A stretch of 23,502 nucleotides of DNA from Collodictyon triciliatum (GCA_043381765.1 JBHJMP010000834.1:62001-85502); one strand, 5' to 3'. Shown: positions 1 to 23,502, numbered from the stretch's first letter. Translations and numbers: made by a program. Notes: generated from the letters alone by a model not told the origin.

Positions 1-488
1 AGACCGATAAAAGGTGTTAACCAAGGTCGGATTTTAGAATTGATTTGAACAAAATCTCCTAATTCCACCTTGTAACTTGGTTTATATATTTTTTGACCAT
101 TTACCAAAACATGGCCATGATTGATCAATTGTTTTGCAGTATATATTGAATTAGAGCTAAGCCCAGTTCTAAATAAAACCACATCTAATCTTAATTCTAG
201 GTTTCGCAGAAACCCGTTTGTCGATCTGGCTTTAACCAAATATCGACAAATGTTTCCCTGTCTAATATTACCATAAAAATGTCTTAATAGGGTTTGGATT
301 GGCATGTTCCTTTTGTGGAGAGCAGAAACCTTCGTCCCCCGTCCAGTCGAAGTCTGTTGCTCCGCTCTGTCACTATGACGGTCCGCAGCGGAGTTAAGTT
401 CATTATGAACGCGTGGGCCCCCTTGCCCATTGCCAGTTTTCCCCCTTAATCGTTTAAATTGCTTAATTTTTTTAGGTTTTTTTAACAT
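1..488 (-). CDS. rps4: Ribosomal protein S4, 5' part (runs off the window start)
   Basis: Hand translation from ATG at 488: MLKKPKKIKQFKRLRG...LLRHFYGNIRQ...LELRLDVVLFRTGL..SIYTAKQLINHGHVLVNGQKIYKPSYKVELGD. This is the S4 RNA-binding motif. Not in the ORF track because the stop is outside the window. Confidence 0.95.
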   Translation of the reverse strand, partial: MLKKPKKIKQFKRLRGKTGNGQGGPRVHNELNSAADRHSDRAEQQTSTGRGTKVSALHKRNMPIQTLLRHFYGNIRQGNICRYLVKARSTNGFLRNLELRLDVVLFRTGLSSNSIYTAKQLINHGHVLVNGQKIYKPSYKVELGDFVQINSKIRPWLTPFIG

Positions 489-605
489 AACGTCCTTAAC
501 CACTTTTCATCATATACTATGGGGTAGCAATTGACCCTGCTTACGGATAACAACGCTCAGACCCCATCAAATATCAAATAAAGACAGGGAGGGTAAAGGT
601 GGCTT

Positions 606-648
606 TTCCCTTCCCTTCCCTTCCCTTCCCTTCCCATCCCATCCCATC
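606..648. repeat. Pentanucleotide microsatellite (TTCCC)6(ATCCC)2
   Basis: Read directly in the divergent rps4/rpl35 spacer. Confidence 0.95.
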
Positions 649-706
649 GGGTCATCAAATAAAGCCCGGGCTTCTGGCCATCACCGCTTGCCAGTTAGTA
701 TAAAAA

Positions 707-1150
707 GTGGCTCTAAACATGAAAACTAAAAAAAGTGTAAAAAAACGTTTTTGGATAACAAGGAATAGAGGGAACAGTTGTTCCCGGTTTTTCTGTCACT
801 CTTTTGGTCGCAGCGACCTTTGTGAACTGGCTTCACCTATGCCGCTGAATCGCGGGCGAAGCCCAGTCGTAACGCCCGGAAAAAATGACGAGCGAAGCGA
901 CGTTGTTTCCCTCCGTTGCAGAGGAAACAAAGCAGAAGCAAAGCAGCTTATAGCATTTCAAAAGGCGGAGAAAAAGCACGATATCTTCCAGCGCAGCCGA
1001 TTGAGAGCATCTAAAAGATGCAGCAAGGAGCAAGCCCGTAACCAAAGCATATTAGCTAGAAGTGGTTCAGCTAAAAAAGGGTTTAATCCCGTCATCATTA
1101 AAAAATGTGATAAAAAACGATTATTAAAATGCTCCCCACGGTCATTATGA
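707..1150 (+). CDS. rpl35: Ribosomal protein L35-like, expanded by internal insertions (GTG 707 or ATG 719 start)
   Basis: N-terminus MKTKKSVKKRFWIT matches the bL35 signature (KT...AKRF..T). KAEKKHDIFQRS resembles the HA..RHILTKK block and PVIIKKCDKKRLLKCSP resembles the bL35 C-terminus. It lies directly upstream of rpl20, as in bacterial rpmI-rplT. Confidence 0.72.
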   Translation: MALNMKTKKSVKKRFWITRNRGNSCSRFFCHSFGRSDLCELASPMPLNRGRSPVVTPGKNDERSDVVSLRCRGNKAEAKQLIAFQKAEKKHDIFQRSRLRASKRCSKEQARNQSILARSGSAKKGFNPVIIKKCDKKRLLKCSPRSL

Positions 1151-1444
1151 AAGCTTGCTCTATCGGGACAAAGGGGTAGCCGACCGATGCCGCGGTTGGG
1201 GGCAAGACGTTTTGAGTCATCTGTTGGGCCGGAGAGTTTTCGAAGCCCGGTTCGCAGCGAACGTGCTTTATTTTTAGGGACCGTTCGCAGCGAACGGATA
1301 ACCATTCGGTCAAAGCCCTAACAATGGGGCCCAAGAGGTTCACTATGAACCGTGTAGAAAATAGGAAACGTTCAAAAGAGCAATAACCGGTGGGGCCGAT
1401 GACGACTGTTCCGGGCCCCGTAGAACGAAGTGAGTTGTTAAATA

Positions 1445-1705
1445 ATGAAAAACAAAGGTGCGTACGGGTTTCATGCGCACAATGGGGCTAAAGCCCGTGC
1501 GCATAAAAACAAGAAATTATATATTAGCAAACTTGGCAGTTGTTGCCGATTATATGGGTTATCTTTCGCTTCACTCATATCAAAATTAAAAGAAGAAAAT
1601 ATAAAATTAAATCGAGAAATCTTGCCATTATTAGCCATTTATGAACCAATGTCGCTTAAGGCAGTCATTAATAGGTCGCAGCATCAGTCACCCTCAAAAG
1701 AATGA
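1445..1705 (+). CDS. rpl20: Ribosomal protein L20, N-terminally shortened
   Basis: KLYISKLGSCCRLYGLSFASLISKLKEENIKLNREILPLLAIYEP matches the bL20 C-terminal domain (LWI.RINAA.R..G.SYS.FI..LK...I.L.RKIL..LA). Confidence 0.85.
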   Translation: MKNKGAYGFHAHNGAKARAHKNKKLYISKLGSCCRLYGLSFASLISKLKEENIKLNREILPLLAIYEPMSLKAVINRSQHQSPSKE

Positions 1706-1833
1706 ACAAGCCAGTCGCTAGCTTCGACAGCTTGGTCAAAGTGACCGCGTTTATCTTTGCTCTCCCTTCCCTTTCGCTTCTCTCGACCAAACAAGGTGGC
1801 CTATCAAGTCAAACAAAACAAAGAACAAAAGTT

Positions 1834-2133
1834 ATGCTCAAAAAAAATTATCGCGACCAAAAACGAAGGTCACTCTTTGGAAAGCATGAATCTCTTAGAA
1901 TAGTTTTAAAAAGTATTATTTATAATCAAGAATTGCCAGAAGAAATTAGATTTAAAGCTCAATTAGAATTAGCATCATTACCTAAAGATTCTTCTAAAGT
2001 TAGAATTAGAAATCGTTGTGTTTTAACTGGAAGAGCTCGGGGTAATTATAGATTGTTCAAGATGAGCAGAATAAAATTTAGAGAATTAGCTTCAATGGGT
2101 ATGATACCTGGTATTACAAAAGCAAGTTGGTAG
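1834..2133 (+). CDS. rps14: Ribosomal protein S14 (homologous start ATG 1834; frame is open back to ATG 1702)
   Basis: RDQKRR...LPKDSSKVRIRNRCVLTGRARGNYRLFKMSRIKFRELASMGMIPGITKASW. Confidence 0.97.
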   Translation: MLKKNYRDQKRRSLFGKHESLRIVLKSIIYNQELPEEIRFKAQLELASLPKDSSKVRIRNRCVLTGRARGNYRLFKMSRIKFRELASMGMIPGITKASW

Positions 2134-2231
2134 GAGCTGACACGCTTTATTGACTTCAAGGTCCGCTGCTCTGGACCGCTGCCTCGGTATTGATGGGAGG
2201 CAGTCATTTCCTGTACTACATAAAAAAAAGA

Positions 2232-3222: not shown

Positions 3223-3301
3223 CCTTCGGACCCTTCGGACCCTTCGGACCCTTCGGACCCTTCGGACCCTTCGGACCCTTCGGACCCTTCGGACCCTTCG
3301 G
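3223..3301. repeat. Tandem array of a 9-bp unit CCTTCGGAC, 8 full copies plus a partial copy
   Basis: Read directly; ends 16 nt upstream of the nad4L ATG. Confidence 0.97.
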
Positions 3302-3626: not shown

Positions 3627-3638
3627 AAGAACGCGGTC

Positions 3639-3739
3639 GCTACGACCTTGCTCTGGGGGTATTGGGGCTTTAGCCCCGAACGTGCCCTACGGCCCCTTTC
3701 AGCCCCTTTTTTGTGTGGGCGATGCGGCAAGGTCGTAGC
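3639..3739. terminator. 13-bp inverted repeat 3' of nad4L, possible processing or termination stem
   Basis: GCTACGACCTTGC (3639-3651) pairs with GCAAGGTCGTAGC (3727-3739); function inferred from position only. Confidence 0.35.
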
Positions 3740-3961: not shown

Positions 3962-4294
3962 CTAGCGAACCGAAAGTTTGTTGACCATAGTAGAAAATCG
4001 AAGTAATGATGTGGCCCGGCTTGGTCCGTTCATTCGGTCGGGAGAGGGTTCATTCGCTACGCTTGTCAGCAGCTGCCCATCCTGCCGAAGGGTCCGAAGG
4101 GCAAGGTCATAATGTGGTTCATTGTGAACCTGATGATAGTTATTTTTATTATTTTTTGAGTCATATTCTAATTTTAAGATAGGGCTTGGAGTGGATTTAC
4201 CTCCCCCGTTAATTGTTGTTCGCATTTCACATGTTGTTCCATTTGATAAGAAAACTAATAATTTGCTTAATTGAGGATGTTTATTTTTTTTCAT
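3962..4294 (-). CDS. rpl31: Ribosomal protein L31 with repeat-derived C-terminal extension
   Basis: MKKNKHPQLSKLLVFLSNGTT...ILKLEYDSKN matches the alphaproteobacterial/mitochondrial bL31 pattern MKK.IHP......V..SDG...L.LD.D.. Confidence 0.85.
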   Translation of the reverse strand: MKKNKHPQLSKLLVFLSNGTTCEMRTTINGGGKSTPSPILKLEYDSKNNKNNYHQVHNEPHYDLALRTLRQDGQLLTSVANEPSPDRMNGPSRATSLLRFSTMVNKLSVR

Positions 4295-5365: not shown

Positions 5366-5450
5366 GCTTCGGGCCGCTTCGGGCCGCTTCGGGCCGCTTC
5401 GGGCCACTTCGGGCCGCTTCGGGCCGCTTCGGGCCGCTTCGGGCCGCTCC
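5366..5450. repeat. Tandem array of a 10-bp unit GGGCCGCTTC, 8 copies (two with one substitution) plus a partial copy
   Basis: Read directly, immediately 3' of trnW. Confidence 0.97.
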
Positions 5451-5776
5451 GGCCCCCTTGTAAAGGAGGGGCGGCCTTGGGGTCGAGCAAAGATAATGCA
5501 GGCCGTGCTGCCCCTTTCACCCTTGCTCCGCATCGCCGGAGGACCGGGGCAACCCAAGCGTTAAGCTATCAAACTTTCGTAGCGACCGACACCACAGTGG
5601 CCGGCTTACGACACGGTCGTGCCTACCTTGCTGTTCACCCCGTAGAGCGACATTCTTAATCCAGGGTCCAAGGGGGGCCCTCCGACATGACGAATGTCGC
5701 TTCGCTCTACGGGGGCCCCCCCTTTTCTTCGCTGGACACGTAACGACACGCAACTAAAAAAAACAGAGCCGGACAA

Positions 5777-6319
5777 ATGAAAAAAACGTCTTTTACCCTT
5801 CGTTTAAAAATCTTAGCTACAAAAGCAACACCAAAACCTCCAATCGGACCAATATTAGGCCAATATTCAATTAATTTAATGGAATTTTGTAAAGAGTTTA
5901 ATGAGCGTAGCAGTCAAATATATAAACCAAATAGAGGTAGTCGCGGAATCATAGTCCCAACAATCGTTAAAATAAGAGAAGATAAAAGCTATTCAATCGA
6001 ATTAAAACCAATAAGTGTTAGTGGAATGCTAGAATTACTTGGACAAGGAAAATTATCAGCATCAGGAGGTCATAATGACCGCGCCCCTCGCCGCAAAAAA
6101 ATAATAGATGCACGAATCATTTATGAGATTGCTATTATACGCATCGCTCGATTCGCTGTGGAAGCAAAGGGCCAAACCTTGTCCCCCCTTCCTAACGACC
6201 GCAGCATAGGAAACTTTGTTTCCAGCCAAAGGCCTTCCCACATCTTTAATGAATGCTTAATGATTAAGGGAACTATTAAATCAATGGGGTATAAAATTAT
6301 TGGACCTAAAGACCTATGA
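5777..6319 (+). CDS. rpl11: Ribosomal protein L11 with insertions
   Basis: LKILATKATPKPPIGPILGQYSINLMEFCKEFNERS...IVPTIVKIREDKSY...IYEIA...MIKGTIKSMGYKI. Confidence 0.96.
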   Translation: MKKTSFTLRLKILATKATPKPPIGPILGQYSINLMEFCKEFNERSSQIYKPNRGSRGIIVPTIVKIREDKSYSIELKPISVSGMLELLGQGKLSASGGHNDRAPRRKKIIDARIIYEIAIIRIARFAVEAKGQTLSPLPNDRSIGNFVSSQRPSHIFNECLMIKGTIKSMGYKIIGPKDL

Positions 6320-8538
6320 TTAATATTATTATTGATGGTAAAGAATTGCGGGCGAAGCCTGGTTTAACTATACTTCAGGCTTGTGCTAGTATAGGCATAA
6401 CAATTCCTAGATTTTGTTATCATGAAAGATTATCAATAGCAGGAAATTGTAGAATGTGCTTAGTTGAAATTGCTAAATCTCCAAAACCAGTAGCATCTTG
6501 TGCATTACAAATAGATAATGGAATGATTATTAAAACAAATTCGGATCTAGTTAAAAAAGCTAGAGAAGGAGTAATGGAATTACTTTTAGCAAATCACCCA
6601 TTAGATTGTCCAATATGTGATCAAGGAGGAGAATGCGATTTACAAGATCAAACAATGGTTTATGGAAGCGATAGAGGTAGATTTAAAGAAGATAAAAGAG
6701 TAGTAGAAGATAAAAATCTTGGACCATTTATTAAAACAATAATGACTAGATGTATCCATTGTACTCGATGTATTCGTTTTGCCAGCGAAATCGCTGGAGT
6801 TCCTTTATTAGGTTTAACTGGTCGAGGAGGTTCAATGGAAGTTGGTACTTATGTTGAAAAAACATTAGATTCCGAATTATCAGGTAATGTTATTGATCTT
6901 TGTCCTGTTGGTGCTTTAACTTCTAAACCTTTTGCTTTTACTGCCAGAAATTGGGAATTAAGATCGGTTAATTCTATCGATGTTACTGATCCAATGGGAT
7001 CAAATATTAGAATAGATCATAGAGGAGGAAAGGTTTTTAGAATAATCCCTAGATTAAATGAAGAAATTAATGAAGAATGGATTACCGATAAAATTCGATT
7101 TCTTTATGACTCCTTTTATAAACAACGATTAAATAAACCGCTCATTAGAAGTAGCCGAAGAGGTGAAACGAGCGAAGCGACTCACCAAAATGGTCGATTA
7201 ATACCTACAAATTGGCAAAATGCCTTTGAGGTTATAACAACTAAGCTTAAAGGCATCTCCGGAGCAAGCAAAGCGCAATTAATCGAATTTAAAATAGGAC
7301 CTTTAATTGAAGTAGAACAATTATTAGTTTTTAAAGATCTTTTAACTAAATTAGGAGTATCTATTAAAGGATGTATTGGAAACTCCCTTGATTTTAGATC
7401 CGATTTTACTCTTGGTTGTGGATTAAAAAACGCTTCACTTGAACTATCTACAGTTTTATTAATAGGAGCAGCTGATATTCCTTTATTAAATGTTAGATTA
7501 AAAAAGGGCGGAGTTCACAATGAACCACTTGCTCCTACAGCCCCTTCTTTATTCTTAATAGGGAATTATCGTGACCTGACTCAACCTTTTAAACATTTAG
7601 GGAATGGACCTAAATCAATTTTTAAAATCTTACAAGGAAAAGATCCCTTCTGTAGATTATTAATTAAAGAAAACAACGTAGCCATTTTATTTGGTTTTAA
7701 TGGACCATTTGTTCAACGAGCAATTGATTCACTTAAACATTTAACATATTGGATAGGTAAAGATCGTTGCCCTGGTCCAAGAAGAACATTTATTGTCGCT
7801 CCAATTCATCAGACAATGTCAAAAATAAATGGAAGCGAAATAGGATTAGAAGACGGTCGTGCCGACCCCTCATCAAAAACGGAAACACGGAAAAACGGTT
7901 CTCCACTTGGTCCTTATTCACCCCAGATTGTCTTTAATCTAGGAAATGAAATAAAAAAAAATGGAGGGAGGGAAGGCGAGGTCGCACCTTTTAATATTTA
8001 TCTAGGACATCATGGTAGTGGTCAAATAAATTTAGCAGATGTAATCTTACCTGGAGCCACTTTCATTGAAAAAAATAGTACTTATTTAAATATTGAAGGA
8101 AGAACTCAAGAAACTAGATTAGTCAACCTACCACCAGATTTAGCAAGAGAAGATTGGAAAATTTTAAAAGCTTTATCCGGCCTTATCGACCTACAGGGTA
8201 ATGAACATGCTCCCCGGCTCTATAAAAAAGGAGAAGGACCTCTGTTCGGTAATGAACCCAGCGTAACGACTGCGTCATCCGGTCCATTGTCCTTACCATT
8301 CTCCTCAAAATCAATGTTATCATCTAGAGGTTTCGCTGTTTCACCTCACTTATTAGATTTAGGACGATTACCACAACAAGATCCAGTGCTTTTACAAAAA
8401 CCTTTTAGACCTTTAAAAATTCAATTAAGACCATTTAAAAGAGTGCCTTATTTAACGGACCCTTTAACTCAAAATAGTAAAAATCTTTGTATTGCGGCTA
8501 CTACTTTTAAATTAGGTGTGTTTCCGCTCGTATCATAA
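6316..8538 (+). CDS. nad11: NADH dehydrogenase subunit 11 (75 kDa / NuoG homologue)
   Basis: IPRFCYHERLSIAGNCRMC, HPLDCPICDQGGECDLQD, RCIHCTRCIRF and DLCPVGALT Fe-S motifs; C-terminal ADVILPG...EK..TYLNIEGRTQ; ATGA overlap with rpl11. Confidence 0.99.
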   Translation: MINIIIDGKELRAKPGLTILQACASIGITIPRFCYHERLSIAGNCRMCLVEIAKSPKPVASCALQIDNGMIIKTNSDLVKKAREGVMELLLANHPLDCPICDQGGECDLQDQTMVYGSDRGRFKEDKRVVEDKNLGPFIKTIMTRCIHCTRCIRFASEIAGVPLLGLTGRGGSMEVGTYVEKTLDSELSGNVIDLCPVGALTSKPFAFTARNWELRSVNSIDVTDPMGSNIRIDHRGGKVFRIIPRLNEEINEEWITDKIRFLYDSFYKQRLNKPLIRSSRRGETSEATHQNGRLIPTNWQNAFEVITTKLKGISGASKAQLIEFKIGPLIEVEQLLVFKDLLTKLGVSIKGCIGNSLDFRSDFTLGCGLKNASLELSTVLLIGAADIPLLNVRLKKGGVHNEPLAPTAPSLFLIGNYRDLTQPFKHLGNGPKSIFKILQGKDPFCRLLIKENNVAILFGFNGPFVQRAIDSLKHLTYWIGKDRCPGPRRTFIVAPIHQTMSKINGSEIGLEDGRADPSSKTETRKNGSPLGPYSPQIVFNLGNEIKKNGGREGEVAPFNIYLGHHGSGQINLADVILPGATFIEKNSTYLNIEGRTQETRLVNLPPDLAREDWKILKALSGLIDLQGNEHAPRLYKKGEGPLFGNEPSVTTASSGPLSLPFSSKSMLSSRGFAVSPHLLDLGRLPQQDPVLLQKPFRPLKIQLRPFKRVPYLTDPLTQNSKNLCIAATTFKLGVFPLVS

Positions 8539-8549
8539 ATGGAGCGAAG

Positions 8550-8573
8550 CGGCTCCGCTTTAAGGCGGAGCCG
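8550..8573. terminator. GC-rich hairpin 3' of nad11
   Basis: CGGCTCCGC-TTTAAG-GCGGAGCCG begins 12 nt after the nad11 stop, at the junction converging with the minus-strand tRNA cluster. Confidence 0.45.
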
Positions 8574-8753
8574 GATCAAGTGGGGTCCGTAGGGGTCAAA
8601 GCTTGTGGTCGCGGTGACAGGCGTAGCCGGTGCTATATATTCATACGCTTCGCTGGACAACGCTCAGCCCCAGAAAGACGAGCGAATAGATTTGCGCTTC
8701 GCTTGAGGTCGTAACGGCGGGGTTCATGAGGCCACTTTTCGAAGGCTTATTTT

Positions 8754-8841
8754 TACTTGCTATCGGACTTGAACCGATAATCGACGTTAGAGGCCGAAGC
8801 AGATTTTAAGTCTGCCGTGTCTACCATTCCACCAAGCAAGT
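8754..8841 (-). tRNA. trnL: tRNA-Leu(UAA)
   Basis: ACTTGCT...AGCAAGT-A; anticodon arm GCAGA-CTTAAAA-TCTGC; long variable arm. Confidence 0.95.
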
Positions 8842-8845
8842 TTGT

Positions 8846-8918
8846 TGCTTAGAGACGGACTTGAACCATCAACCGTAGGACCTTCAAACCTAAGCTCTAC
8901 CAATTGAGCTATCTAAGC
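8846..8918 (-). tRNA. trnF: tRNA-Phe(GAA)
   Basis: GCTTAGA...TCTAAGC-A; anticodon loop TTGAAGG; GGTTCAAGTCC T-arm. Confidence 0.94.
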
Positions 8919-8923
8919 AAATT

Positions 8924-8997
8924 AGCCAGATGTCAGACTTGAACTGACAACCTGAGGATTACAAATCAACTGCTCTACCAATTAAAGCTAATCTGGC
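8924..8997 (-). tRNA. trnT: tRNA-Thr(UGU), with two mismatches in the anticodon stem
   Basis: GCCAGAT...ATCTGGC-T; anticodon arm GTTGA-TTTGTAA-TCCTC. Confidence 0.88.
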
Positions 8998-8999
8998 AT

Positions 9000-9073: not shown

Positions 9074-9675
9074 ATGAAATAGTATTAAAAGGAGATGCCT
9101 GGACTGTATTCTACCTTCCTGTTAAGTACGCGTTTTCCACCAACAGAACTGAAGGGTTGACGACGAGCGAGGGTCTGATGAGCTATTTTTCGTTACGGAG
9201 CGGAAGGAATAGTCGTTTGGAACAGCGACGTCCTATTGCGCTTGCGGCGTCGTCATTGCTTCGCTCCCTTTCTGCGCAAGACGGTCACTATGAAGCGTTT
9301 CATTACTTTAAATAAGCTTTTGTACGTCTTCGCTGCGGTCGATACGACCTTGACCCTTGGACCTTGACCATCTCGATAGGCCATCCAGGCTTAAATAGGC
9401 CACCAAGCGAAGAATGACGACCTTTGACCCGTCCACATGTCGAGGCCCCTGACTGGGTAAATAGGCACCCTAATTATATACTCAACAATAAGGGGGTAGG
9501 CCCGGGGGCGCCGGGCCAATTCCGTTCACTATGAAAGAAGGGGATTGGGCCAGTCGTTGACGCGGGAAAAAAACACAGTGACCGCATCCTTACGGGCAGC
9601 AGCCAGTTCATAGTGGAAAGCAGCGAACAGGTTTTTCGCGTCGTCGTAAGGGTGGCCCCCTTCACACGCGGGAGC

Positions 9676-9874: not shown

Positions 9875-10159
9875 TTAGCCCCTTTTTCTAGTTGGAGCGA
9901 ATTCACCTAATTTATGTCCTACCATCTCTTCAGAAACTTTTACTTTAATAAAACTTTTTCCATTGTGTACTTCAAACACTTTGCCTACATAACTTGGCAA
10001 AATAACGGAATTTCTATTGGTTGTTCTTTGTATTAATCGGGAAGGGGGAACAATGTTTGTTCCCTGCTCTTCGCTTCCTGTTTGATGAGACTGAGCTGGT
10101 CGTTGCGACCGCATTAACTCAGGATCAATAAATGGTCCTTTCCAAATAGATCTAGTCAT
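9875..10159 (-). CDS. rps19: Ribosomal protein S19
   Basis: MTRSIWKGPFID...RNSVILPSYVGKVFEVHNGKSFIKVKVSEEMVGHKLGEFAPTRK. Confidence 0.98.
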   Translation of the reverse strand: MTRSIWKGPFIDPELMRSQRPAQSHQTGSEEQGTNIVPPSRLIQRTTNRNSVILPSYVGKVFEVHNGKSFIKVKVSEEMVGHKLGEFAPTRKRG

Positions 10160-10288
10160 GAGCTAGCGGACATTATTTTCTTCTGCATCGAAAACCAGAT
10201 CTACGTTTTAAAATTAATAATTTAGGTTGATAAGTTCGTTTCAAGTCGTTGGCATTTGAGGTCAGAATGACCGGCTTTCAAAAAATTA

Positions 10289-11023
10289 ATGAATACTAAT
10301 CATATTTTATACACTACGAGATCTTATCCCATTTGGACTTTAGGTGCTTATTTTTTAATTTTACTTATTTCAGGAGGTTATTTATTAACAACTTATATTG
10401 AATCTGATTTTCAACAAGATGACTTTTTTAAAATTATTTATTGTCATGTTCCCTGTGCTTGGTTAGCTTTACAGCTATTTGTTGTGATGTTGGGGTTAGC
10501 TATTACTTATTTGGTGAAAAAGAATCCTATTTATTTTATTTTTATTAAAACGATTACTGGTTTAGGAACGGTATTCTCGACCCTAACTTTAATATCAGGT
10601 TCTCTTTGGGCCAAACCTATTTGGGGCTCTTATTGGGTTTGGGATGGACGGTTGTCCGCAATGTTTTTATTGAGTATTATTTATATTGCAATATTACTCA
10701 GTCAATCAGAAAAAATCCGGCTAAGGCTTATTTTTTTAGGTTCAATTAATCTTCCAATAATAAAATATTCAGTTGATTGGTGGAATAGTTTACATCAACC
10801 CTCAACTTTTAAACATTTTACTATTGCCCAGGAGATGTTTTCTTCAGTGATATTGATTTATCTGAGTTTTTTGGCTTTAACCTTTTTAATAACATTAATT
10901 GAATTTAGAATTGCAATATTAAACTTGAAAGCCGGTCGCTACGACAAGCAGAAATGCGCTTCGCTTGTTACAAGCACCAACTTTGTTTCCTCTGTTCGTT
11001 CAAAAGAGGGGGTGGAGCGATAA
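10289..11023 (+). CDS. ccmC: Cytochrome c maturation (System I) heme chaperone-loading membrane protein CcmC
   Basis: KIIYCHVPCAW, tryptophan-rich WWD motif GSLWAKPIWGSYWVWDGRL, and INLPIIKYSVDWWNSLHQ. Confidence 0.98.
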   Translation: MNTNHILYTTRSYPIWTLGAYFLILLISGGYLLTTYIESDFQQDDFFKIIYCHVPCAWLALQLFVVMLGLAITYLVKKNPIYFIFIKTITGLGTVFSTLTLISGSLWAKPIWGSYWVWDGRLSAMFLLSIIYIAILLSQSEKIRLRLIFLGSINLPIIKYSVDWWNSLHQPSTFKHFTIAQEMFSSVILIYLSFLALTFLITLIEFRIAILNLKAGRYDKQKCASLVTSTNFVSSVRSKEGVER

Positions 11024-11884: not shown

Positions 11885-12576
11885 AAAACGGAGCGGAGCG
11901 CCCTCGAAAGAACCTTCCCATGTAGAGCGAAGCGACACTTATCGTTGGAAGCTGCTATAACAACGAGCTTAATGAGACCACCGGTTGACCCCTAACGACA
12001 GGAAGAGTGCATAATGCAAGGTCGAACCCCCGTCATTGTGGAAACGAGCTCTGGAGTGCTTATCTACTATGACCTTGTTCTTTCGCCCGAGTTGAGGAAC
12101 AAGGTCAGGGACTGCGTGTTCATATCGTCTAACAAGCAAGGGCGGGAAATGAACCTCTTGCCACTTACCTTTTCCCTCTATATTCTTGCTCTCCTCCCCC
12201 GGCAAGGGCGAAATGACAGCATCGCAAGGGTGTTGTTCAAGGCTGGATTGTGCGGGACCGCTTATCTACTGCTTATAACAGTGCCTATGAACCGGAGTGT
12301 GTGTGGTGGTGCATTATGCTGTTCACTATGAACCAGACGAAGGAAGGGAAAATAAGATTGCCAACTGTCGTTTGGAGCTTTGCTCCTGCCTGGCCCCCTT
12401 ATGACACACAACAAAAAGAACAGAAAACGGACCGTACCCACTTTCCCGTTTCGACCTTGAATGGCCTTTTTCGGACGAAGGGGAAATGTGGGTCGTTACG
12501 ACCCGTACCATTTCCCCCTTCATTAGTATTGCGGCTCCCCCTTTGCGGTCGTAACGACATGAACGCTACCCCTTTA

Positions 12577-12765: not shown

Positions 12766-12853
12766 TTTATTTTTTTTTTATTTACTGGACGGGGGTAAAC
12801 CTCGCCCCCAAGGAAAAGGGTCATCGTGAACCTATGTTGGGGGCCGGAGGTGG

Positions 12854-13990: not shown

Positions 13991-15684
13991 ATGAAGTGGG
14001 CTGTTGCTGCCCCTTCCCAAACCTGACAAGCTGGTTTCCCAGCATCAGGCTTTAAAACCGCTGCTTCGGCGAGCTGGCGGCCCGTTAAAATAACGCTTTG
14101 CAAGCAAAACGTATTGTAGTAATGAATCAAGGTGGCCTATCGTCAACAGAAAAAAGATGTTGTCCCTTTTCTCGCTTTGCTCTACGGGAACGACACGGGG
14201 GAAAGCGGGGAACTGGAAAATAAGATTTTCCGGTTGTCCCAACAGTCGTTAATACTTGCCGGTTGGCCCCCTATTAGGCAAAGCTAGTTCACGATGAACC
14301 TCTCTTTGCCTGGCGAGAGAAGCGAGGGCCTCTTTGCCCGGAAGGAACGCTTATCGATTGTTTGTTCTGCATCCAAGGTCGTAGAAGAGGTCACAGCGAC
14401 CGCGTGCATCAATGAGTTGACTCCCGGGTGGAAAGACCTATTCATTAAGGTCTATTTAATTCTTTTGTATTCATCTGGGGCTAAAGAGAGGGAAGCGGGG
14501 CCTTCTTTCACTATTATTACAAAGCAATGAATGAAGAACAGCCGTTCCCCCTCCCTTGAACGCGGCTACGCTCCGAGAATAAGGCACATAAACAACCGAG
14601 AAGCGAATACAACATTTCAATTTAATTTCCAAGCTTGTAACAATGAATGGCGGCAAGTACAAGGAATCTCGCCTGTCCTTCCCAAACAAATTTAGGTGGT
14701 TCCTCGAAACAATCTAGTGCAAGGTCATAACGCTTCGCTTGCCTCTTGCCCCCCAGCTTATAGGCCATCGGCCTGTTCCTTATAGGCGGTTACTGTATAA
14801 TGCTGCACTTATTATGGAACCGGGGGCTGAGATTTTTTGACTTCTAAGCTACTTTTGCTTATCACCTTTTTTGTTCTTAATTCAAAACAGGTTATTGTCC
14901 CTTTAGGTAGAGATCGTGAACAACTTCACTTGCGAACGGAATAAAGAAGCCGCTTCGCTCAAGTAGGGCAAGTGCCGCAGAGCGTCATGCCCGCCTGTCC
15001 TTGCTCTCCCTTCCCTTCGATCCCGTAACGACTGTTCTTTCTGTCCTTATGAAGCAGCTTACGACCGCGTGCCTTATGAAGCGCGACTGGGGTTCTAGGT
15101 CATTGTGACCGGAAGCAAAGGGAACGCGCTTCCGGCCGGAGGCAAGTCAGAGCTAAATACAAACAGGCTTTTCGCGTCGTCCCCCGTCCGCTTGAATGAC
15201 TGGAAACGAGCTCATGGGGCGCAAAGCCAGTGCCGGTCAACCACCACTATCAGAAAGCGGTCCAAGTGGGCTTTTGTACGCTCCGTCTTCGTTCCATTTC
15301 ACCGGCAGCTGCTCTTCACAACGATGTGGCTTTGTGGCTTTGCCTAAAACGACGTAGTCCCCAGAATATATAGGGGACCCGCCGGCGGGCGGGCGGCTGA
15401 GCGAAGCGGGAGCATCACAGAGGCGAAAGGAGTGAGAGCGACAACGTTGACAACAAAGCGACTTTACCAGTGCAAGGGAACGACTGTTGCAATCTTATTT
15501 TCCAGTTCCCTTTCATCTGCCACCCTTTTACAACTGTCCTTTATGTAGAAAAGTTGAGCGAAGCGACTTTACCCCGACCTGGGCGTACGCATACCCCAAC
15601 AACTGCGACATTCGTTCTTCTTCGCCTTATCTCAGGTTAGTTTTGAATAATATAAGCTCATTTGGAAATTAAAAATGATCACAC
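13991..15684 (-). mobile_element. Group IIA intron in nad7, 1694 nt, no intact ORF
   Basis: 5' end GTGTG. Domain V AAGCCTGATGCTGGGAAACCAGCTTGTCAGGTTT (14052-14019). Domain VI GAAGGGGC..GCCC-A-CTTC with bulged A (13997) 7 nt from the terminal AT. EBS1 TGCAGC (14807-14802) in an ATAAT/ATTAT hairpin is complementary to the exon end GCTGCA. Splicing restores NFGPQHPAA|HGVLRL. Confidence 0.96.
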
Positions 15685-15771
15685 TGCAGCTGGATGTTGT
15701 GGTCCAAAATTAATAGTAAAATTTTTAACTTCTAAAAGGGGGAGTGAACTTGTGTACAATGGTTCTTTCAT
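15685..15771 (-). CDS. nad7: NADH dehydrogenase subunit 7, exon 1 (29 codons)
   Basis: MKEPLYTSSLPLLEVKNFTINFGPQHPAA, the conserved Nad7/NuoD N-terminal motif. Confidence 0.96.
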
Positions 15772-16507: not shown

Positions 16508-17083
16508 TTACTTCTTCTTATTTTTATTGGACGATCCAAGCGCTATCTCGCCCCCTTCCATTAAATATCTAATACCTTGACCTTTATAACGATCAATTGG
16601 TTTTAATTTTTTAAGTTCTGCAGCCACTTTTGTAACTTCTATTAAATTTATTCCAAAAATATTTAAAACTACTGAAGGTTGGCCTATCGTTGCAGCACTT
16701 TCCATACCAATTGTTATTTCAATATTCGCTGGAATTGGGTACTCGACCCCATGACTATATCCTAATTTAAATAATAAAGTTCGATTCTGTTTACTTACTT
16801 TATAAAAAATACCTACAATTTTTAATATAACTAAATGACCTATTGTTACTCCTTGAATCATTTGATTTAATAAACTAATAAAGGGGACACGCCGTCCCTG
16901 ATCGGGTTTTGGGATCTGTAATCTTAATTCTCCTAATGGTCCTTTTACTCGGAGTCCATTATCTTTATCCAATGTGGTCATTATGACCTTGTTACGACTT
17001 TGGCTCATTTCGTTATTTTTGTGCGGGACTCGCTTTACTCTACGGGAGTCTGTTGTCCGAAACGTGTCGAGCGAAGTACTCAT
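16508..17083 (-). CDS. rpl6: Ribosomal protein L6, divergent N-terminus (start uncertain)
   Basis: VKGPLGEL, SLLNQMIQGVTIG, LKIVGIFYK, KLGYSH and KPIDRYKGQGIRY motifs; precedes rps13-rps11. Confidence 0.93.
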   Translation of the reverse strand: MSTSLDTFRTTDSRRVKRVPHKNNEMSQSRNKVIMTTLDKDNGLRVKGPLGELRLQIPKPDQGRRVPFISLLNQMIQGVTIGHLVILKIVGIFYKVSKQNRTLLFKLGYSHGVEYPIPANIEITIGMESAATIGQPSVVLNIFGINLIEVTKVAAELKKLKPIDRYKGQGIRYLMEGGEIALGSSNKNKKK

Positions 17084-17608
17084 TTCCCTCTCTTCTTTCA
17101 CGAAGCGTAAGGCAAGTGGCGGTCCGCTTTTCGCTCGTCTTCAAGCTGCTAACGACAGCATGAACAAGTGTGAACGCGGGTGCTTTAGCACCAGTAATCC
17201 ACCCATTCGTTCCCCTTAGACCCAGCCTACCTTTTATACTCCAAATCTGAGACCCTGTTCGCGGCGAACGTGAATAAAAAAGGTCGCAGTTGTTGGAAGC
17301 GATGGCCGGTTCATAGTGAACACGGTCTCGTGGGACGTTCTTTTGTGGTTACCCGCTTCGCTCAGGGAGGGAATACAGCAAGGACGACCAAAGCGTGCCA
17401 GGACCAAAGGACAAGTCAAGTATTCCTTCCGAACGATAAGTTCGTCTTTGCTTTCCGCCTTTTCCCCCTGCTACAGTATTATTGGTGTCCACTTTTCGCT
17501 CGACTTGGACAATTACTTTAACAATGAGTGGAAGCAAAGGGGATGAGAACTATTGACGGCCGAAGAGGACCCAGTTAGCTCTGACAGCTTGACCGTTCGC
17601 GTCGTCTT

Positions 17609-19502: not shown

Positions 19503-19877
19503 TTATTTTATTCTCTCATTAGTTAGAGCAAGTAATTTTATATGATTTTTTCTTAATTCATGAGTAACTGGACCAAAAATTCTTGTTGCTAAAGGTTGAC
19601 CATTTTCTTTAATAATAGTTATAGCATTATCATTAAATGAGCGAAGCGTGCCATCTGGTCTAATTATTTCTTTTTTAGTTCTAATAACAACACCATAATG
19701 AACTTCTCCTTTTTTTAGGAAGAAACCTCTTGAGCCAATTTTACCAGGGATGGCATCTTTAATACTAACTACGATAACGTCTCCAATTGTGGCGTATTTT
19801 CCTGTGATTTTTATTGTTTCAGCTATTTTTCCACCACTATTATCAGATATTTTTACTCTAGTAGATTTTAAAATCAT
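19503..19877 (-). CDS. rpl14: Ribosomal protein L14
   Basis: SDNSGGK...ATIGDVIVVSIKDAIP...VVIRTKK..RPDG...FNDNA...TRIFGPV.HELR. Confidence 0.98.
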   Translation of the reverse strand: MILKSTRVKISDNSGGKIAETIKITGKYATIGDVIVVSIKDAIPGKIGSRGFFLKKGEVHYGVVIRTKKEIIRPDGTLRSFNDNAITIIKENGQPLATRIFGPVTHELRKNHIKLLALTNERIK

Positions 19878-20361: not shown

Positions 20362-20997
20362 TTAATTTATCCAAACTTTTATTCCTATTACACCAAATTT
20401 AGTGTGGGCCTTAGCAAAACCATAATTTACTTTAACACTGATGGTTTGTAATGGGATTCTACCTATTTTTATTATTTGGGTTTTTGCCATTTCTGCACCA
20501 TTTAATCTACCTGAACATAAGATTTTTAAACCTTTTAAAGGTGAAGATGAAGAGCGGGGTTTAACAAATTCAGAAATTAAAGCTGCTACATCTTTAAATG
20601 GTGATGAGGTTTTCTTTTCTATTCTTTTTGCAATTAATTCTGCTAAGGTTTTTGCACCCACTGTAGAGCCGAACCCATCTAAAAAATATATAATAAGACA
20701 AAGCTTTGATTTAGTTAAATTCTCAATAAATTTTGATATGTGGAGACGAAGCGCTGCATTCATAGTGAACGCGCTTTGCTTGACCACATCACTCCATATT
20801 TGTAATTTTACAATACAAAGCCTTGCTCCTCGATTAATTTGACAATCCTTTAAGTAGTAATTATTTATTTTGCACCTTGTTTCAATATATTTTATTATTT
20901 GTAAGTCCTCGTGTAATAGTTTATCAAAATGTTTTAAACTATACCAAGGGGCTGCCCGTTTATTTCGAAAGATTATTGGATTTACTTTTTGACCCAT
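20362..20997 (-). CDS. rps3: Ribosomal protein S3 (homologous start ATG 20997)
   Basis: MGQKVNPIIFR...GLKILCSGRLNGAEMAK...GRIPLQT...YG...AHTKFGVIGIKVWI. Confidence 0.97.
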   Translation of the reverse strand: MGQKVNPIIFRNKRAAPWYSLKHFDKLLHEDLQIIKYIETRCKINNYYLKDCQINRGARLCIVKLQIWSDVVKQSAFTMNAALRLHISKFIENLTKSKLCLIIYFLDGFGSTVGAKTLAELIAKRIEKKTSSPFKDVAALISEFVKPRSSSSPLKGLKILCSGRLNGAEMAKTQIIKIGRIPLQTISVKVNYGFAKAHTKFGVIGIKVWIN

Positions 20998-21350: not shown

Positions 21351-21388
21351 GGTCTCCACATGATACAGAATTGAGCTATGTGGAGACC
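21351..21388. terminator. 11-bp stem immediately 3' of the rps10 stop
   Basis: GGTCTCCACAT (21351-21361) pairs with ATGTGGAGACC (21378-21388); function inferred. Confidence 0.4.
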
Positions 21389-21391
21389 CTT

Positions 21392-21853
21392 TTATCTCCC
21401 TATCCGAATTTCAGTCAGATCAAGACGAAGCCGAACTCCAACTGGTAATTTTTCTAAATGGGATGTGGGTGAAGCCGATGGGGCAAACCCATCAATAATT
21501 AAAGTAGGATGAATCATGCCTTTAATCACCCCGCCTGTTTGATTCGTTGCTGCGGTTTTCGAAATGGTTTGAACCCTGTCATTCGACCTTGAATGAGGTA
21601 TAGCTGGTGATGTGAAGACGGGTTCACAACGCGTTGCCCCGCTTGGTTGGCAACCGATCTTATTATGATCAACCATTATTATTGAACTTTTTCTTATTTG
21701 TTGTTCTAATTGATCTCTAGATTTTTTATCAATATGTGGACTTCTTAAAACAGTAAATCGTTTAATTTTTTTAGGATGCATTATAGAGGAATTAACCGAA
21801 AATGGCCATCCTTCTAATGTTACAGAATAAGAATGAATGTGAAGAGTTTTCAT
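21392..21853 (-). CDS. rps10: Ribosomal protein S10, divergent with large insertion
   Basis: PKKIKRFTVLRSPHIDKKSRDQLE signature and C-terminal LPVGV. Confidence 0.93.
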   Translation of the reverse strand: MKTLHIHSYSVTLEGWPFSVNSSIMHPKKIKRFTVLRSPHIDKKSRDQLEQQIRKSSIIMVDHNKIGCQPSGATRCEPVFTSPAIPHSRSNDRVQTISKTAATNQTGGVIKGMIHPTLIIDGFAPSASPTSHLEKLPVGVRLRLDLTEIRIGR

Positions 21854-22013
21854 AGGCGTTTATTGAGGCGAAGCCGGTTGTCCTCCCTTTGGCCGGAAGG
21901 AACGCTTGAAGGGGGCAGCCGTTACGATCTTGCTCCCCGTAGCGGTCGAGCAAAGCACATGTGTGGGACCAACACGCTTCACTGAACCCACCGGCCCCTG
22001 ACCTGGATGCATT

Positions 22014-22087
22014 TAGCCTTAGGAGGGCATGATCCTCCGACATTACCATTATGAGTGGTATGTTCTAACCAACTGAACTATAAGGCC
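22014..22087 (-). tRNA. trnI: tRNA with CAU anticodon, most likely tRNA-Ile(CAU, lysidine type)
   Basis: GGCCTTATAGTTCAGTTGGTTAGAACATACCACTCATAATGGT...TAAGGCT-A resembles mitochondrial trnI(cau) genes; elongator Met is not strictly excluded. Confidence 0.8.
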
Positions 22088-22983
22088 TTAGGGCGTAGGT
22101 TGGTTGGGTTCCCATTATATGGGAGGAAATGAAAATACCTGCAGCGGCCGAAGGCCACTCAGTGGGGGGGGGCGAGAGGGCGACCAAGAGGCTGCATTTT
22201 CATCTTCTGTCGTTACGACCACTTACATACCCCAAGAGAGGCGAGAGGAGCGAGAGAACGAAAAACGGATGGGGAGCGAACACCCGCGTCGTCGTAACAA
22301 CGCTCCGCCCCAAGGAATGAATGAAATGGGCTTACGACCGTTTGGTTTGGCTCGGCAAGCCTTTCTCCTTCATAAGCCAGTCGGGCTTCCACCTTTTACA
22401 CGCTTTTATACTCTTTGAGCCGCAGGGCATTGTATAAAATAAGACGCTTCGAACCGGAAACAAAGCTAACACCGGGTGGTGATGGTAGATGTGGTCACTG
22501 CCGCATCGAGGGTATATGACCTTTTAGACCGGAAAGGGGGGAACTGTGATAAGGCCGGCTCCCTAATAAGCGCATCAAGGTCGAATGACAGCTTGAAGCG
22601 AGGACATCGAACGCTTGGGAATCAAGGTCGAATGACCGGCACCATTGTGAACGTGTTACCCCACATCAAGGACGTTACGACCGGGTTCCACTTGTATAAT
22701 AAAGGTAGGGTAAAAAGTAAGGAGAGTCCATTCGTTTGGTGGGCACCTTTTCCTTTTCCCTTCGCCTCTGTCACTGCTTATAACCGGCCGAAGGGCTCAA
22801 TCAATCAATCGATCGATCGGCGATCAATTGAGAGGCCCTCACCACGTATGACCCTTTACCCTAAAACAGAATTGACGCAGCGGACTGGTAGTAGAGGTCA
22901 CAGTGACCGCAATGCAGCCAAAGTGGGTTGTCACCTCATTTCCGGTGCATCCCATAGTGCATGTTTTCTTTGCCCCGTCCGAT

Positions 22984-23038
22984 CTTGCCCGTTCTTCGAT
23001 GCTACGGGGACTTGCCCGTTCTTCGATGCTACGGGGAC
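22984..23038. repeat. Perfect tandem duplication of a 27-bp unit CTTGCCCGTTCTTCGATGCTACGGGGA
   Basis: 22984-23010 and 23011-23037 are identical. Confidence 0.95.
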
Positions 23039-23502
23039 ATAAGGCCTTGGTAAGGTTTAACAAGATTAAAATTAAGTACCAAAAGTTTAAGGTCGCAACG
23101 ACCGCAAGTCATTGCTGAACGAGCGAACGATGATGATGAGGGTCAAGGTCAGGGACCGTATAGGGCGGACCAAAGACATAGGGGGCCGGAACGACAGTTG
23201 GAAGCGCAATCTTGCGCTTCGCTTCGCTTCGCTTCCCTTCCCCACTCTTTGCTGATAACACGAATGACGCTTCACTCCCCCCTTCCACTCTCCTACGCTA
23301 CGGACCTTAACTCCGGTCTTCCAAGAGGAAGGACGGTCAATACGAAAGCTTGAGCTAAAGTTGAGCGACTGCAGCTTCGACCTGGGGAGCAAAAGTGGCC
23401 TTCGGTAGGTTCACTTGTCTTTGTGGCCTTAACAGTAATGTTTGGTTCAACAACCCAACCCTGGTATCCTTGCACCCATCTTGCTCGGCACTTCCCCCCC
23501 CC

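What the first reader, a model, noticed from the sequence alone, without database searches (positions are those of the whole stretch)
370..23103. A family of 13-bp triloop palindromes has invaded protein genes in frame
Seen: a palindrome G(G/T)TC(A/G)-NNN-(C/T)GA(A/C)C with compensatory stem changes and variable loop. It occurs in spacers and the intron (1250, 1283, 1338, 3635, 12321, 14287, 15098, 17309, 22896, 23091). It also occurs inside CDSs: rps4 398-410, rpl35 806-818, rpl31 4117-4129, rpl11 6068-6080, nad11 7513-7525, rps19 10098-10110, ccmC about 10934, rpl6 16976-16988 and rps3 about 20758. The same peptide therefore recurs in unrelated proteins (VHNE in Rps4, Rpl31 and Nad11; GHND in Rpl11). 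These copies sit in GC-rich segments that interrupt or extend AT-rich conserved blocks without breaking the frame. Known analogues: Rickettsia palindromic elements in ORFs, and yeast/Magnusiomyces GC clusters and byps. Inference: a mobile micro-hairpin system that adds new peptide loops to mitoribosomal and complex I proteins, or that is removed or skipped at the RNA level.
Basis: partly seen in the sequence, partly recalled or inferred. Interest (0 to 1): 0.8.

Follow-up and report, generated by a model that had tools for sequence, protein, structure and literature searches.

The report
Tiny hairpin repeats inside mitochondrial genes
The mitochondrial DNA of an uncultured freshwater relative of Diphylleia is peppered with a 13-base palindrome that also sits, in frame and apparently translated, inside ribosomal-protein and complex I genes: a clear new example of the selfish hairpin repeats already known from other mitochondria.

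Summary
G(G/T)TC(A/G)-NNN-(C/T)GA(A/C)C occurs 25 times against 0.22 expected, and both variable stem positions covary (24 of 25 each). The window is mitochondrial DNA of an uncultured diphylleid; the closest named relative is Diphylleia rotans.

Eight exact copies lie in coding sequence, 3 in the nad7 group II intron and 14 in spacers. The nad11 copies (2 exact, plus 1 tetraloop variant) and the rpl11 copy lie in GC-rich, whole-codon inserts that D. rotans lacks. One nad11 insert is also missing from an 87%-identical relative.

The rps19 copy sits in a hypervariable linker. The rpl6 copy aligns to ordinary residues. The rps14 copy is upstream of the true start. The rps4, rpl31 and rpl35 copies could not be tested against D. 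rotans.

Contigs from three RNA libraries keep the inserts. Two of those libraries show the nad7 intron spliced out, so removal at the RNA level is unlikely.

Best reading: a lineage-specific family of repetitive hairpin elements, copied at the DNA level and translated as extra loops. This is a new member of a known kind (yeast GC clusters, sponge hairpin elements, Rickettsia palindromic elements). Earlier reports of this scan describe similar in-frame hairpin inserts on other DNA. How the copies spread is not shown.

The parts
398..410 (.). Palindrome copy in rps4 (minus-strand gene), read as VHNEL, inside a 40-residue GC-rich block
   Evidence: no close comparator, so insertion not tested
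806..818 (.). Copy in the rpl35-like ORF 719-1150, read as GRSDL
   Evidence: the ORF has only a weak L35 match (E 0.19, residues 1-16)
1250..1262 (.). Spacer copy between rpl35-like ORF and rpl20
1283..1295 (.). Spacer copy; stem extends to 7 bp (1281-1297)
1338..1350 (.). Spacer copy; 6-bp stem
1734..1746 (.). Copy 29 nt after the rpl20 stop and upstream of the true rps14 start (1834); not coding
   Evidence: D. rotans Rps14 P0167 is 99 aa and starts at the window's M45
3635..3647 (.). Spacer copy 9 nt after the nad4L stop
4117..4129 (.). Copy in rpl31 (minus), read as VHNEP. Polymorphic: an equal-length allele reads LPSEAG, carries GCGAAGC and has no palindrome
6068..6080 (.). Copy in rpl11, read as GHNDR, inside the 24-nt insert 6059-6082 that the 149-aa relative P0124 lacks
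7513..7525 (.). Copy in nad11, read as VHNEP, inside the 27-nt insert 7507-7533 absent from D. rotans
7855..7867 (.). Copy in nad11, read as GRADP. It opens the 18-nt insert 7855-7872, absent from D. rotans (P0003) and from the 87%-identical P0002, present in P0001
8244..8257 (.). Four-base-loop variant (GTTCG-GTAA-TGAAC) inside the 27-nt nad11 insert 8236-8262
9337..9349 (.). Spacer copy
10098..10110 (.). Copy in rps19 (minus), read as RSQRP in another frame; lies in a hypervariable linker, +2 residues against D. rotans
10046..10064 (.). A different palindrome (8-bp stem GGGAACAA, 3-nt loop) inside a clean 9-residue rps19 insert (GTNIVPPSR, about 10037-10063)
10260..10272 (.). Spacer copy between the rps19 and ccmC starts
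10934..10946 (.). Near copy (one arm position off) in the variable C-terminal tail of ccmC
12321..12333 (.). Spacer copy
12491..12503 (.). Spacer copy; 6-bp stem
12819..12831 (.). Imperfect copy (G-A at positions 2/12) 23 nt after the nad7 stop
14287..14299 (.). Copy in the nad7 group II intron
14389..14401 (.). Imperfect copy (A-C at positions 5/9) in the nad7 intron
15098..15110 (.). Copy in the nad7 intron
16976..16988 (.). Copy in rpl6 (minus), read as KVIMT. AT-rich context; aligns to the ordinary N-terminal strand, so not an insert and possibly a chance match
17257..17269 (.). Spacer copy
17309..17321 (.). Spacer copy
20758..20770 (.). Near copy in rps3 (minus), within AFTMNAALR; overlies the degenerate KH region, net +4 residues against a bacterial S3
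22896..22908 (.). Spacer copy
23091..23103 (.). Spacer copy
13991..15684 (-). nad7 group II intron (1,694 nt, starts GTGTG). Serves as the positive control for RNA: it is spliced out in two RNA libraries

Best explanation

Shown: copies are dispersed through GC-rich spacers, an intron and genes. Related genomes differ in having or lacking the insert at a given site.

Inferred: copies are written into new places at the DNA level, by insertion or by short-patch replacement from another copy. A single-stranded hairpin stage keeps the two arms complementary.

Inside genes, only copies that add whole codons without a stop at tolerant sites survive. Those sites are variable loops, linkers and tails.

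Shown only at the level of contigs from RNA libraries: the in-gene copies stay in the transcript. Inferred from the intact frames: they are translated as a few extra residues, which is why the same peptides (VHNE, GHND) recur in unrelated proteins. They need have no function of their own.
For: Enrichment and covariation:
- 25 copies against 0.22 expected; 13 against 0.26 within GC-rich sequence alone.
- Four stem variants. Both variable pairs are compensated in 24 of 25 copies each, with 14 different loops.
- The shared stem argues for copying from common sources, not independent origin.

Distribution: 0.72 copies per kb in coding sequence, 1.40 in spacers and 1.77 in the intron.

Inserts:
- Against D. 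rotans, nad11 has 12 whole-codon gaps. The 27-, 18- and 27-nt inserts each hold a family palindrome. rpl11 has a 24-nt insert with one.
- Inserted codons are 54% and 53% GC, aligned codons 33% and 34%.
- The 18-nt nad11 insert is present in the window and in P0001 (96% identical) but absent from P0002 (87%) and from D. rotans.

Turnover: in rpl31, an equal-length allele with the GCGAAGC heptamer replaces the palindrome. It is seen in proteins P0127 and P0129 and in an RNA-library contig.

Retention in RNA:
- RNA-library contigs span the inserts with no gaps: X3 5732-8077, X18 6315-8077, X13 6874-8387.
- X3 and X18 also carry the joint 13990-15685. That is exact nad7 splicing and restores NFGPQHPAA|HGVLRL.

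Frames: every affected reading frame is intact.

Structure: in a poor AlphaFold model, the segments below pLDDT 50 at 285-291, 398-407, 516-531 and 629-655 coincide with the inserts and have no secondary structure.
Against: - No empty site was seen at the nucleotide level. All presence/absence evidence is from protein alignments.
- No target-site duplication, terminal signature or candidate enzyme was identified.
- The rpl6 copy aligns to ordinary residues, and the rps19 copy adds only 2 residues against D. rotans. Simple insertion therefore does not explain every copy. Short-patch replacement or chance is needed for these.
- The hairpins are weak: -1.7 to -4.9 kcal/mol as RNA and -1.8 to -3.3 as DNA for the copies that fold.
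- Contigs from RNA libraries show presence, not absence, and such libraries can contain DNA. Translation of the inserts is inferred from the intact frames, not observed.
- Within 90%-identity clusters, the rps19, rps3 and rpl16 sites do not vary, so turnover is not fast everywhere.
Confidence: 0.7

Rival explanations
1. The palindromes are not copied elements. They are by-products of a local mutational process: template switching or fold-back synthesis during break repair, with GC-biased repair. This would make or perfect small palindromes in place, and selection would then keep the in-frame ones.
For: - Equal-length allele replacement in rpl31.
- The rps19 and rpl6 copies overlie existing residues.
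- A GCGAAGC heptamer in rpl14 overlies conserved residues without length change (for its place; the comparison with bacterial L14 is recalled, not tested).
- The near-perfect arm complementarity is what hairpin-templated correction would give.
- Different lineages carry different inserts at the same hot spots.
Against: Independent in-place origin would give stems of arbitrary sequence. Here 23 of the 50 perfect 5+3+5 palindromes share one stem frame, and only four stem variants occur. That points to copying from shared templates or to a sequence-specific agent.
Confidence: 0.15
2. The palindromes are functional signals, and the in-gene copies are spill-over. The signals could be RNA stem-loops that mark processing or 3' ends of mitochondrial transcripts, or binding sites for a dimeric DNA-binding protein.
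For: - 3 of 14 spacer copies lie within 30 nt after a stop codon (1734, 3635, 12819; my reading).
- The stem is conserved while the loop is free.
- The covariation favours a structure over two independent half-sites.
Against: - 11 of 14 spacer copies are not near a gene end.
- No molecule ends could be read, because only contigs were available (table 6: none).
- The hairpins are weak.
- D. rotans manages without this motif and has unrelated AT-rich palindromes.
- Copies in introns and inside genes have no obvious use as end signals.
Confidence: 0.1
3. The in-gene copies are neutralised after transcription. They would be excised from the RNA, or skipped by the ribosome as in the translational bypassing of Magnusiomyces mitochondria.
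For: - The inserts are short, GC-rich and hairpin-forming, like the bypassed blocks.
- Atkins et al. 2016 (PMC5009743, passages read) raise in-frame bypassing in other mitochondria as an open possibility.
Against: - Every insert keeps the frame and lacks stops. A skipped block would not need to. In Magnusiomyces the blocks disrupt the frames of 12 of 15 genes.
- Contigs from three RNA libraries retain the inserts, while the nad7 intron is spliced in two of them.
- No joint at an insert boundary is among the 15 joints shown (6 more were not shown).
Confidence: 0.05

Closest known systems
Mobile GC clusters of yeast mitochondrial DNA (for example GC42; Wu and Hao 2015, PMC4478555, passages read; var1 insertions as cited in Erpenbeck et al. 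2009, PMC2800124, passages read)
   Same: - Short, gene-less, palindromic repeats, GC-richer than the surrounding genes.
- Scattered through spacers of an AT-rich mitochondrial genome.
- Variable between relatives.
[quoted passage not shown]
- The mechanism of spread is unresolved there too.
   Different: - Here the core is only 13 bp, whereas the named yeast cluster GC42 is 42 bp.
- The motif itself is not especially GC-rich (5 to 9 of 13 bases).
- No target-site duplication was seen.
- Many conserved genes are affected, not one.
- The host is a diphylleid protist.
Repetitive hairpin-forming elements of sponge mitochondria and double-hairpin elements of fungal mitochondria (Erpenbeck et al. 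2009, PMC2800124, passages read)
   Same: - Dispersed hairpin repeats with conserved stems and variable loops.
- Mostly in spacers, sometimes in rRNA genes and, less often, in protein genes.
[quoted passage not shown]
   Different: - By that paper's account, copies in protein genes are infrequent.
- Here 8 of 25 exact copies are in coding sequence, at half the spacer density.
Palindromic repeats of Diphylleia rotans mitochondrial DNA, types A-C (Kamikawa et al. 2016, PMC4779616; passages, section 4 and three rows of supplementary file 3 read)
   Same: Closest relative's genome: abundant short palindromes in spacers and introns, interpreted as selfish elements.
   Different: - The D. rotans repeats are 21-45 nt, with AT-rich 8-10 bp stems of unrelated sequence.
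- They are reported only in spacers, introns and three unidentified ORFs.
- None of the three consensus patterns occurs in the window.
- D. rotans lacks the nad11, rpl11 and rps19 inserts.
Rickettsia palindromic elements (review PMC10969869, passages read)
   Same: Palindromic repeats inserted in frame into unrelated housekeeping genes, so that one peptide recurs in unrelated proteins.
   Different: Those elements are about 150 bp, each with its own conserved peptide-coding frame, and the host is a bacterium. Here the element is ten times shorter and contributes four or five residues.
Bypassed inserts of Magnusiomyces capitatus mitochondria (Atkins et al. 2016, PMC5009743, passages read)
   Same: Short blocks inserted into many mitochondrial protein genes and kept in the mRNA.
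   Different: Those blocks break the frame and are skipped by the ribosome. Here every insert is a whole number of codons without stops.

Membership tests
Mitochondrial repetitive hairpin elements / GC clusters | Short dispersed repeat with hairpin potential, far above chance | tested here: met
   25 copies against 0.22 expected; 23 of 25 are perfect 5-bp stems with a 3-nt loop
Mitochondrial repetitive hairpin elements / GC clusters | Conserved stem with free loop; arms stay complementary | tested here: met
   24 of 25 copies compensated at each of the two variable pairs, Fisher p 3.4e-6; 14 different loops
Mitochondrial repetitive hairpin elements / GC clusters | Presence/absence between related genomes at the same site | tested here: met
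   Protein level only. The nad11 insert GRADPS is absent from P0002 and D. rotans. The rpl11 insert is absent from P0124. In rpl31 one allele replaces the other.
Mitochondrial repetitive hairpin elements / GC clusters | Target-site duplication or constant ends | tested here: inconclusive
   The flanks of the 25 copies show only a tendency to GC after the palindrome. No relative's DNA was available to define insert ends (searches found none).
Mitochondrial repetitive hairpin elements / GC clusters | In-gene copies retained in the transcript | tested here: met
   Contigs of three RNA libraries span the inserts without gaps, with spliced nad7 as control. These are contigs, not raw reads.
Diphylleia rotans palindromes, types A-C | Match to the published consensus stems | tested here: not met
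   0 matches to any of the three consensus patterns
Rickettsia palindromic elements | About 150-bp element with its own conserved peptide-coding frame | tested here: not met
   The core is 13 bp. Copies are read in three different frames (6 copies at offset 0, 1 at offset 1, 2 at offset 2, counting the non-coding rps14 copy).
Translational bypass inserts (Magnusiomyces type) | Insert disrupts the reading frame or carries stops and must be skipped | tested here: not met
   All affected ORFs are open through the inserts. All 14 gaps against the reference proteins are whole codons by alignment.
Translational bypass inserts (Magnusiomyces type) | Protein lacks the insert-encoded residues | not testable with these tools
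   No proteomic data

The most novel reading that the evidence does not exclude
The in-frame hairpin blocks are sites of partial, in-frame ribosome hopping. Each invaded gene would then yield two proteins, one with and one without the extra loop. This is the 'in-frame bypassing in other mitochondria' that Atkins et al. 2016 flag as an open issue. My evidence shows that the inserts are kept in RNA-library contigs and keep the frame. It does not show that they are present in the proteins.
Probability: 0.05. Interest if true: 0.8.

Novelty: new member of a known kind. Interest (0 to 1): 0.4.

Why it matters
It extends in-frame colonisation of core mitochondrial genes by selfish hairpin repeats to Diphylleida. 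It also does so with an element of only 13 bp, close to the smallest size at which a repeat family can still be recognised.

Two closely related genomes differ sharply here. D. rotans has clean genes, while this uncultured relative has inserts in nad11, nad7, rpl11 and rps19. That gives a natural before-and-after pair for asking three questions:
- how such elements spread;
- which protein sites tolerate them;
- how much they inflate mitochondrial genomes (the contig on record is 85 kb, against 62.6 kb for D. rotans).

Practically, annotators and phylogeneticists who use these proteins should mask the inserts.

Tried and rejected
- First guess, the jakobid Moramonas (bloated mitochondrial DNA). 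Rejected: that paper lists no trnW or trnT and mentions no palindromes. Nad11 points to Diphylleia instead.
- No whole genome is held for the window.
- Scan of metagenome contigs with Nad11.
- Scan of viral contigs with Nad11 found no relative. Scan of genome contigs with the lineage-specific Nad11 tail found none either. No nucleotide-level empty site could therefore be examined.
- Matches in solved structures for Rpl11, Rps19, Rpl6 and Rps4 gave local alignments that break at the inserts. They were of limited use for placing them.
- The Rps4 copy could not be classed as an insertion. The window holds only part of the gene, and no D. rotans Rps4 was retrieved.
- The rpl35 identity rests on a sub-threshold match (E 0.19) and on its position next to rpl20.
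- The AlphaFold model of Nad11 is poor (mean pLDDT 61.9; the Fe-S domain 88-212 is below 50), so I did not use it for surface mapping or fold searches.
- Depth differences between genes and spacers in the RNA runs (table 2) were not used as evidence, because contig depth cannot rank regions.
- Earlier notes of this scan: none exist for this genome.
- My first regular expression was one base short. The count was redone.

Full report
**What the window is**

Open reading frames and Pfam matches give rps4, an rpl35-like ORF, rpl20, rps14, rps8, nad4L, rpl31, rpl11, nad11, rps19, ccmC, nad7, rps11, rps13, rpl6, a 2x[4Fe-4S] subunit (nad8), rpl14, rpl16, rps3 and rps10. There are also nine tRNA genes.

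The closest named Nad11 is that of Diphylleia rotans (P0003: 77% by BLASTP, 83% over the aligned columns). Unnamed metagenome proteins are 96% (P0001) and 87% (P0002) identical. Rps14 falls in one 90% cluster with the D. rotans protein. The window is therefore mitochondrial DNA of an uncultured relative of D. rotans.

Its proteins are on record on a contig of 85,133 nt. The D. rotans genome is 62,563 bp (PMC4779616, section 4). Twenty runs from 15 studies hold the stretch 5777-11023. The listed rows are nearly all labelled as freshwater or lake metagenomes.

**The observation**

The motif occurs 25 times against 0.22 expected. In my own simulations it occurs 25 times against 0.25, and 13 times against 0.26 when only the GC-rich 37% of the window is considered. 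So composition does not explain it. Of the 50 perfect 5+3+5 palindromes in the window, 23 belong to the family.

The stems are GTTCA (7), GGTCG (7), GGTCA (6) and GTTCG (3). Two further copies each have one unpaired position (12819 and 14389). Both variable positions are compensated on the other arm in 24 of 25 copies. I tallied the table by hand; Fisher p = 3.4e-6 for each pair. With only G.TC.....GA.C fixed there are 30 hits, 23 of them doubly complementary. Loops vary, with 14 different triplets.

Seventeen more sites differ from the consensus at one arm position. A variant with a four-base loop lies at 8244.

Eight further exact copies were missed.

**Where the copies lie**

I used corrected gene limits: rps14 starts at 1834, rps3 at 20997 and rpl6 at 17008, and nad7 is split by an intron. 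With these limits:

| Region | Copies | Length (nt) | Copies per kb |
|---|---|---|---|
| Coding sequence | 8 | 11,137 | 0.72 |
| Spacers | 14 | 9,988 | 1.40 |
| nad7 intron | 3 | 1,694 | 1.77 |

Coding sequence is 34% GC and spacers are 53% GC.

Copies 1250-1338 lie in a spacer, not in an intron. The 1734 copy sits in an ORF extension that the 99-aa D. rotans Rps14 shows to be non-coding.

**Are the in-gene copies insertions?**

- **Nad11.** Against D. rotans there are 12 gaps, all whole codons. The inserted codons are 54% GC and the aligned codons 33%. The 27-nt insert at 7507-7533 holds the 7513 copy. The 18-nt insert at 7855-7872 begins with the 7855 copy. The 27-nt insert at 8236-8262 holds the four-base-loop variant. 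A 33-nt insert holds the heptamer GCGAAGC. The 18-nt insert is present in the window and in P0001 but absent from P0002 and from D. rotans.
- **Rpl11.** The 149-aa relative P0124 lacks a 24-nt insert with the 6068 copy and a 69-nt GC-rich insert. Closer relatives have altered versions of both.
- **Rps19.** The 13-bp copy lies in a linker that differs throughout from D. rotans and is only 2 residues longer there. A different 19-bp palindrome (10046-10064) makes a clean 9-residue insert.
- **Rps3.** The near copy overlies the degenerate KH region, with a net 4 extra residues against a bacterial S3.
- **CcmC.** The near copy is in a C-terminal tail that differs among strains.
- **Rpl6.** The copy is in AT-rich sequence and aligns to the ordinary N-terminal strand. 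It is not an insert and may be the one chance match that 0.25 expected allows.
- **Rpl31.** The copy lies beyond the part that matches the L31 profile. It is polymorphic (see 'Turnover' below).
- **Rps4 and the rpl35-like ORF.** The copies lie in long GC-rich blocks, but I had no close comparator.

In sum, insertion is shown for 3 exact copies and 1 variant. Two sites are only mildly expanded (the rps19 linker and the rps3 KH region). One copy is not an insert, and three are untested.

**Turnover**

In rpl31, proteins P0127 and P0129 read LPSEAG where the window reads QVHNEP. A contig of RNA run X3 has the matching differences. When these differences are applied to the window, they give that peptide, remove the palindrome and create GCGAAGC, at unchanged length. 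So one small hairpin motif replaces another at the same six codons.

The P0002/P0123 lineage carries different or longer inserts at the same places in Nad11 and Rpl11. DNA run X16 has six extra bases just before the 7513 copy, matching P0001. Within 90% clusters, the rps19 and rps3 sites do not vary.

**RNA**

Three metatranscriptome runs from three studies give contigs that span the nad11 and rpl11 inserts with no gaps:
- X3, 5732-8077, 0 other letters;
- X18, 6315-8077, 1 other letter;
- X13, 6874-8387, 3 other letters.

Other RNA-library contigs cover 806, the 4117 site (as its LPSEAG allele, which has no palindrome), 8244, 10098 and 10934 (table 8).

The control is nad7. Rfam finds group II domain V/VI at 13991-14054 on the minus strand. 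X3 (depth 22.9) and X18 (depth 16.8) contain the joint 13990-15685. That joint removes 1,694 nt starting GTGTG and joins NFGPQHPAA to HGVLRL, the conserved Nad7 sequence. D. rotans also has a cis-spliced group II intron in nad7.

These libraries therefore hold mature RNA, yet the hairpin inserts are kept. The limits are that contigs show presence and not absence, that 6 joints were not shown, and that translation is inferred from the open frames.

**How it most likely works**

The shared stem frame with compensated variants argues for copying from common templates and for a single-stranded hairpin stage. It argues against two independent protein half-sites and against independent origin.

The hairpins are weak: -1.7 to -4.9 kcal/mol as RNA and -1.8 to -3.3 as DNA for the copies that fold. 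Only 3 of 14 spacer copies lie within 30 nt after a stop codon. A role as transcript-end signals is therefore not supported.

I conclude that this is a selfish or neutral hairpin repeat family that spreads at the DNA level. Selection leaves only whole-codon, stop-free copies at tolerant protein sites. In the poor AlphaFold model, the low-confidence coil segments coincide with the inserts, which is weak support for 'loops'. Whether spread is by insertion, by short-patch conversion or by templated break repair is open. The rpl31 swap and the rps19 and rpl6 cases favour a replacement component.

**Comparison with what is known**

- D. rotans has 83 palindromes of 21-45 nt in three AT-rich types. 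They are reported only in spacers, introns and three unidentified ORFs. Their consensus stems do not occur in the window.
- Repetitive hairpin elements of sponge mitochondria, fungal double-hairpin elements and yeast GC clusters are the same kind of thing. That includes rare copies in protein genes and retention in transcripts (PMC2800124). For yeast GC clusters the mechanism is still debated (PMC4478555).
- Rickettsia palindromic elements share the in-frame habit but are about 150 bp (PMC10969869).
- The Magnusiomyces blocks break the frame and are bypassed (PMC5009743). That defining feature is not met here.
- Volvox palindromes are described for spacers and introns in the passages I read (PMC2670323).
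- Searches for a description of this family or of another diphylleid mitochondrial genome found only the D. rotans paper.
- Earlier reports of this scan describe similar in-frame hairpin inserts in giant viruses, CPR bacteria and a green-alga mitochondrial rps4. I did not test those.

**Verdict**

This is a new member of a known kind and is of moderate interest. Its value lies in the very small element size, the number of conserved genes affected, and the clean contrast with D. rotans.

Noticed in passing
whole window, e.g. 7170-7180 (nad11), 13508-13516 (nad7), 19640-19650 (rpl14): The heptamer GCGAAGC (either strand) is the most over-represented word: 45 copies against 2.3 simulated. AGCGAAGCG occurs 33 times. 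34 copies are in spacers, 7 in coding sequence and 4 in the intron. In nad7 it adjoins a 5-residue insert (NSSHS), and in nad11 it lies in a 33-nt insert. From memory, d(GCGAAGC) is a known very stable DNA mini-hairpin; ViennaRNA does not fold it.
   Followed up: partly
13991-15684 (minus strand): nad7 is split by a 1,694-nt group II intron with no recognisable maturase ORF. Exon 1 is 15685-15771. The intron is spliced in RNA runs X3 and X18. Runs X18 and X16 also show a form that skips 756 nt inside the intron (14906 to 15663), so the intron interior differs between strains.
   Followed up: partly
9154-9228: All three RNA-library runs (X3, X13, X18), but not the DNA run X16, contain a form that skips 73 nt of the spacer next to trnM. 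The unskipped form is also present in the RNA runs. It could be a strain variant, an assembly effect at a short repeat, or RNA processing; not resolved.
   Followed up: no
3223-3301, 5366-5452, 606-645: Perfect or near-perfect tandem arrays of short GC-rich units: CCTTCGGAC x8.8, GCTTCGGGCC x8.7 and TTCCC x8. The first two contain CTTCGG.
   Followed up: no
770-785, 2749-2766, 10046-10064: A second small palindrome family with stems GGGAAC/GTTCCC. One copy is in the rpl35-like ORF and one forms a clean 9-residue insert in rps19. Its half-sites are the same GAAC/GTTC words as in the 13-bp family, but in the opposite order.
   Followed up: partly
11751-11825: A 35-nt unit repeated 2.1 times overlaps the 5' end of trnR(gcg) (11810-11885). 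The start of the tRNA gene appears to be duplicated upstream.
   Followed up: no
1445-1705, 21392-21853, 719-1150: Several ribosomal-protein genes are heavily remodelled. The rpl20 ORF matches only profile positions 43-106 of 107. rps10 matches only 29-74 of 98 and carries long GC-rich stretches. The rpl35-like ORF matches L35 only in its first 16 residues.
   Followed up: partly
1734, 6068, 10260, 15098, 16976, 22896: The six GGTCA-NNN-TGACC copies coincide with the core of the vertebrate oestrogen response element (recalled, not tested). This is surely a coincidence, but motif scanners may flag it.
   Followed up: no
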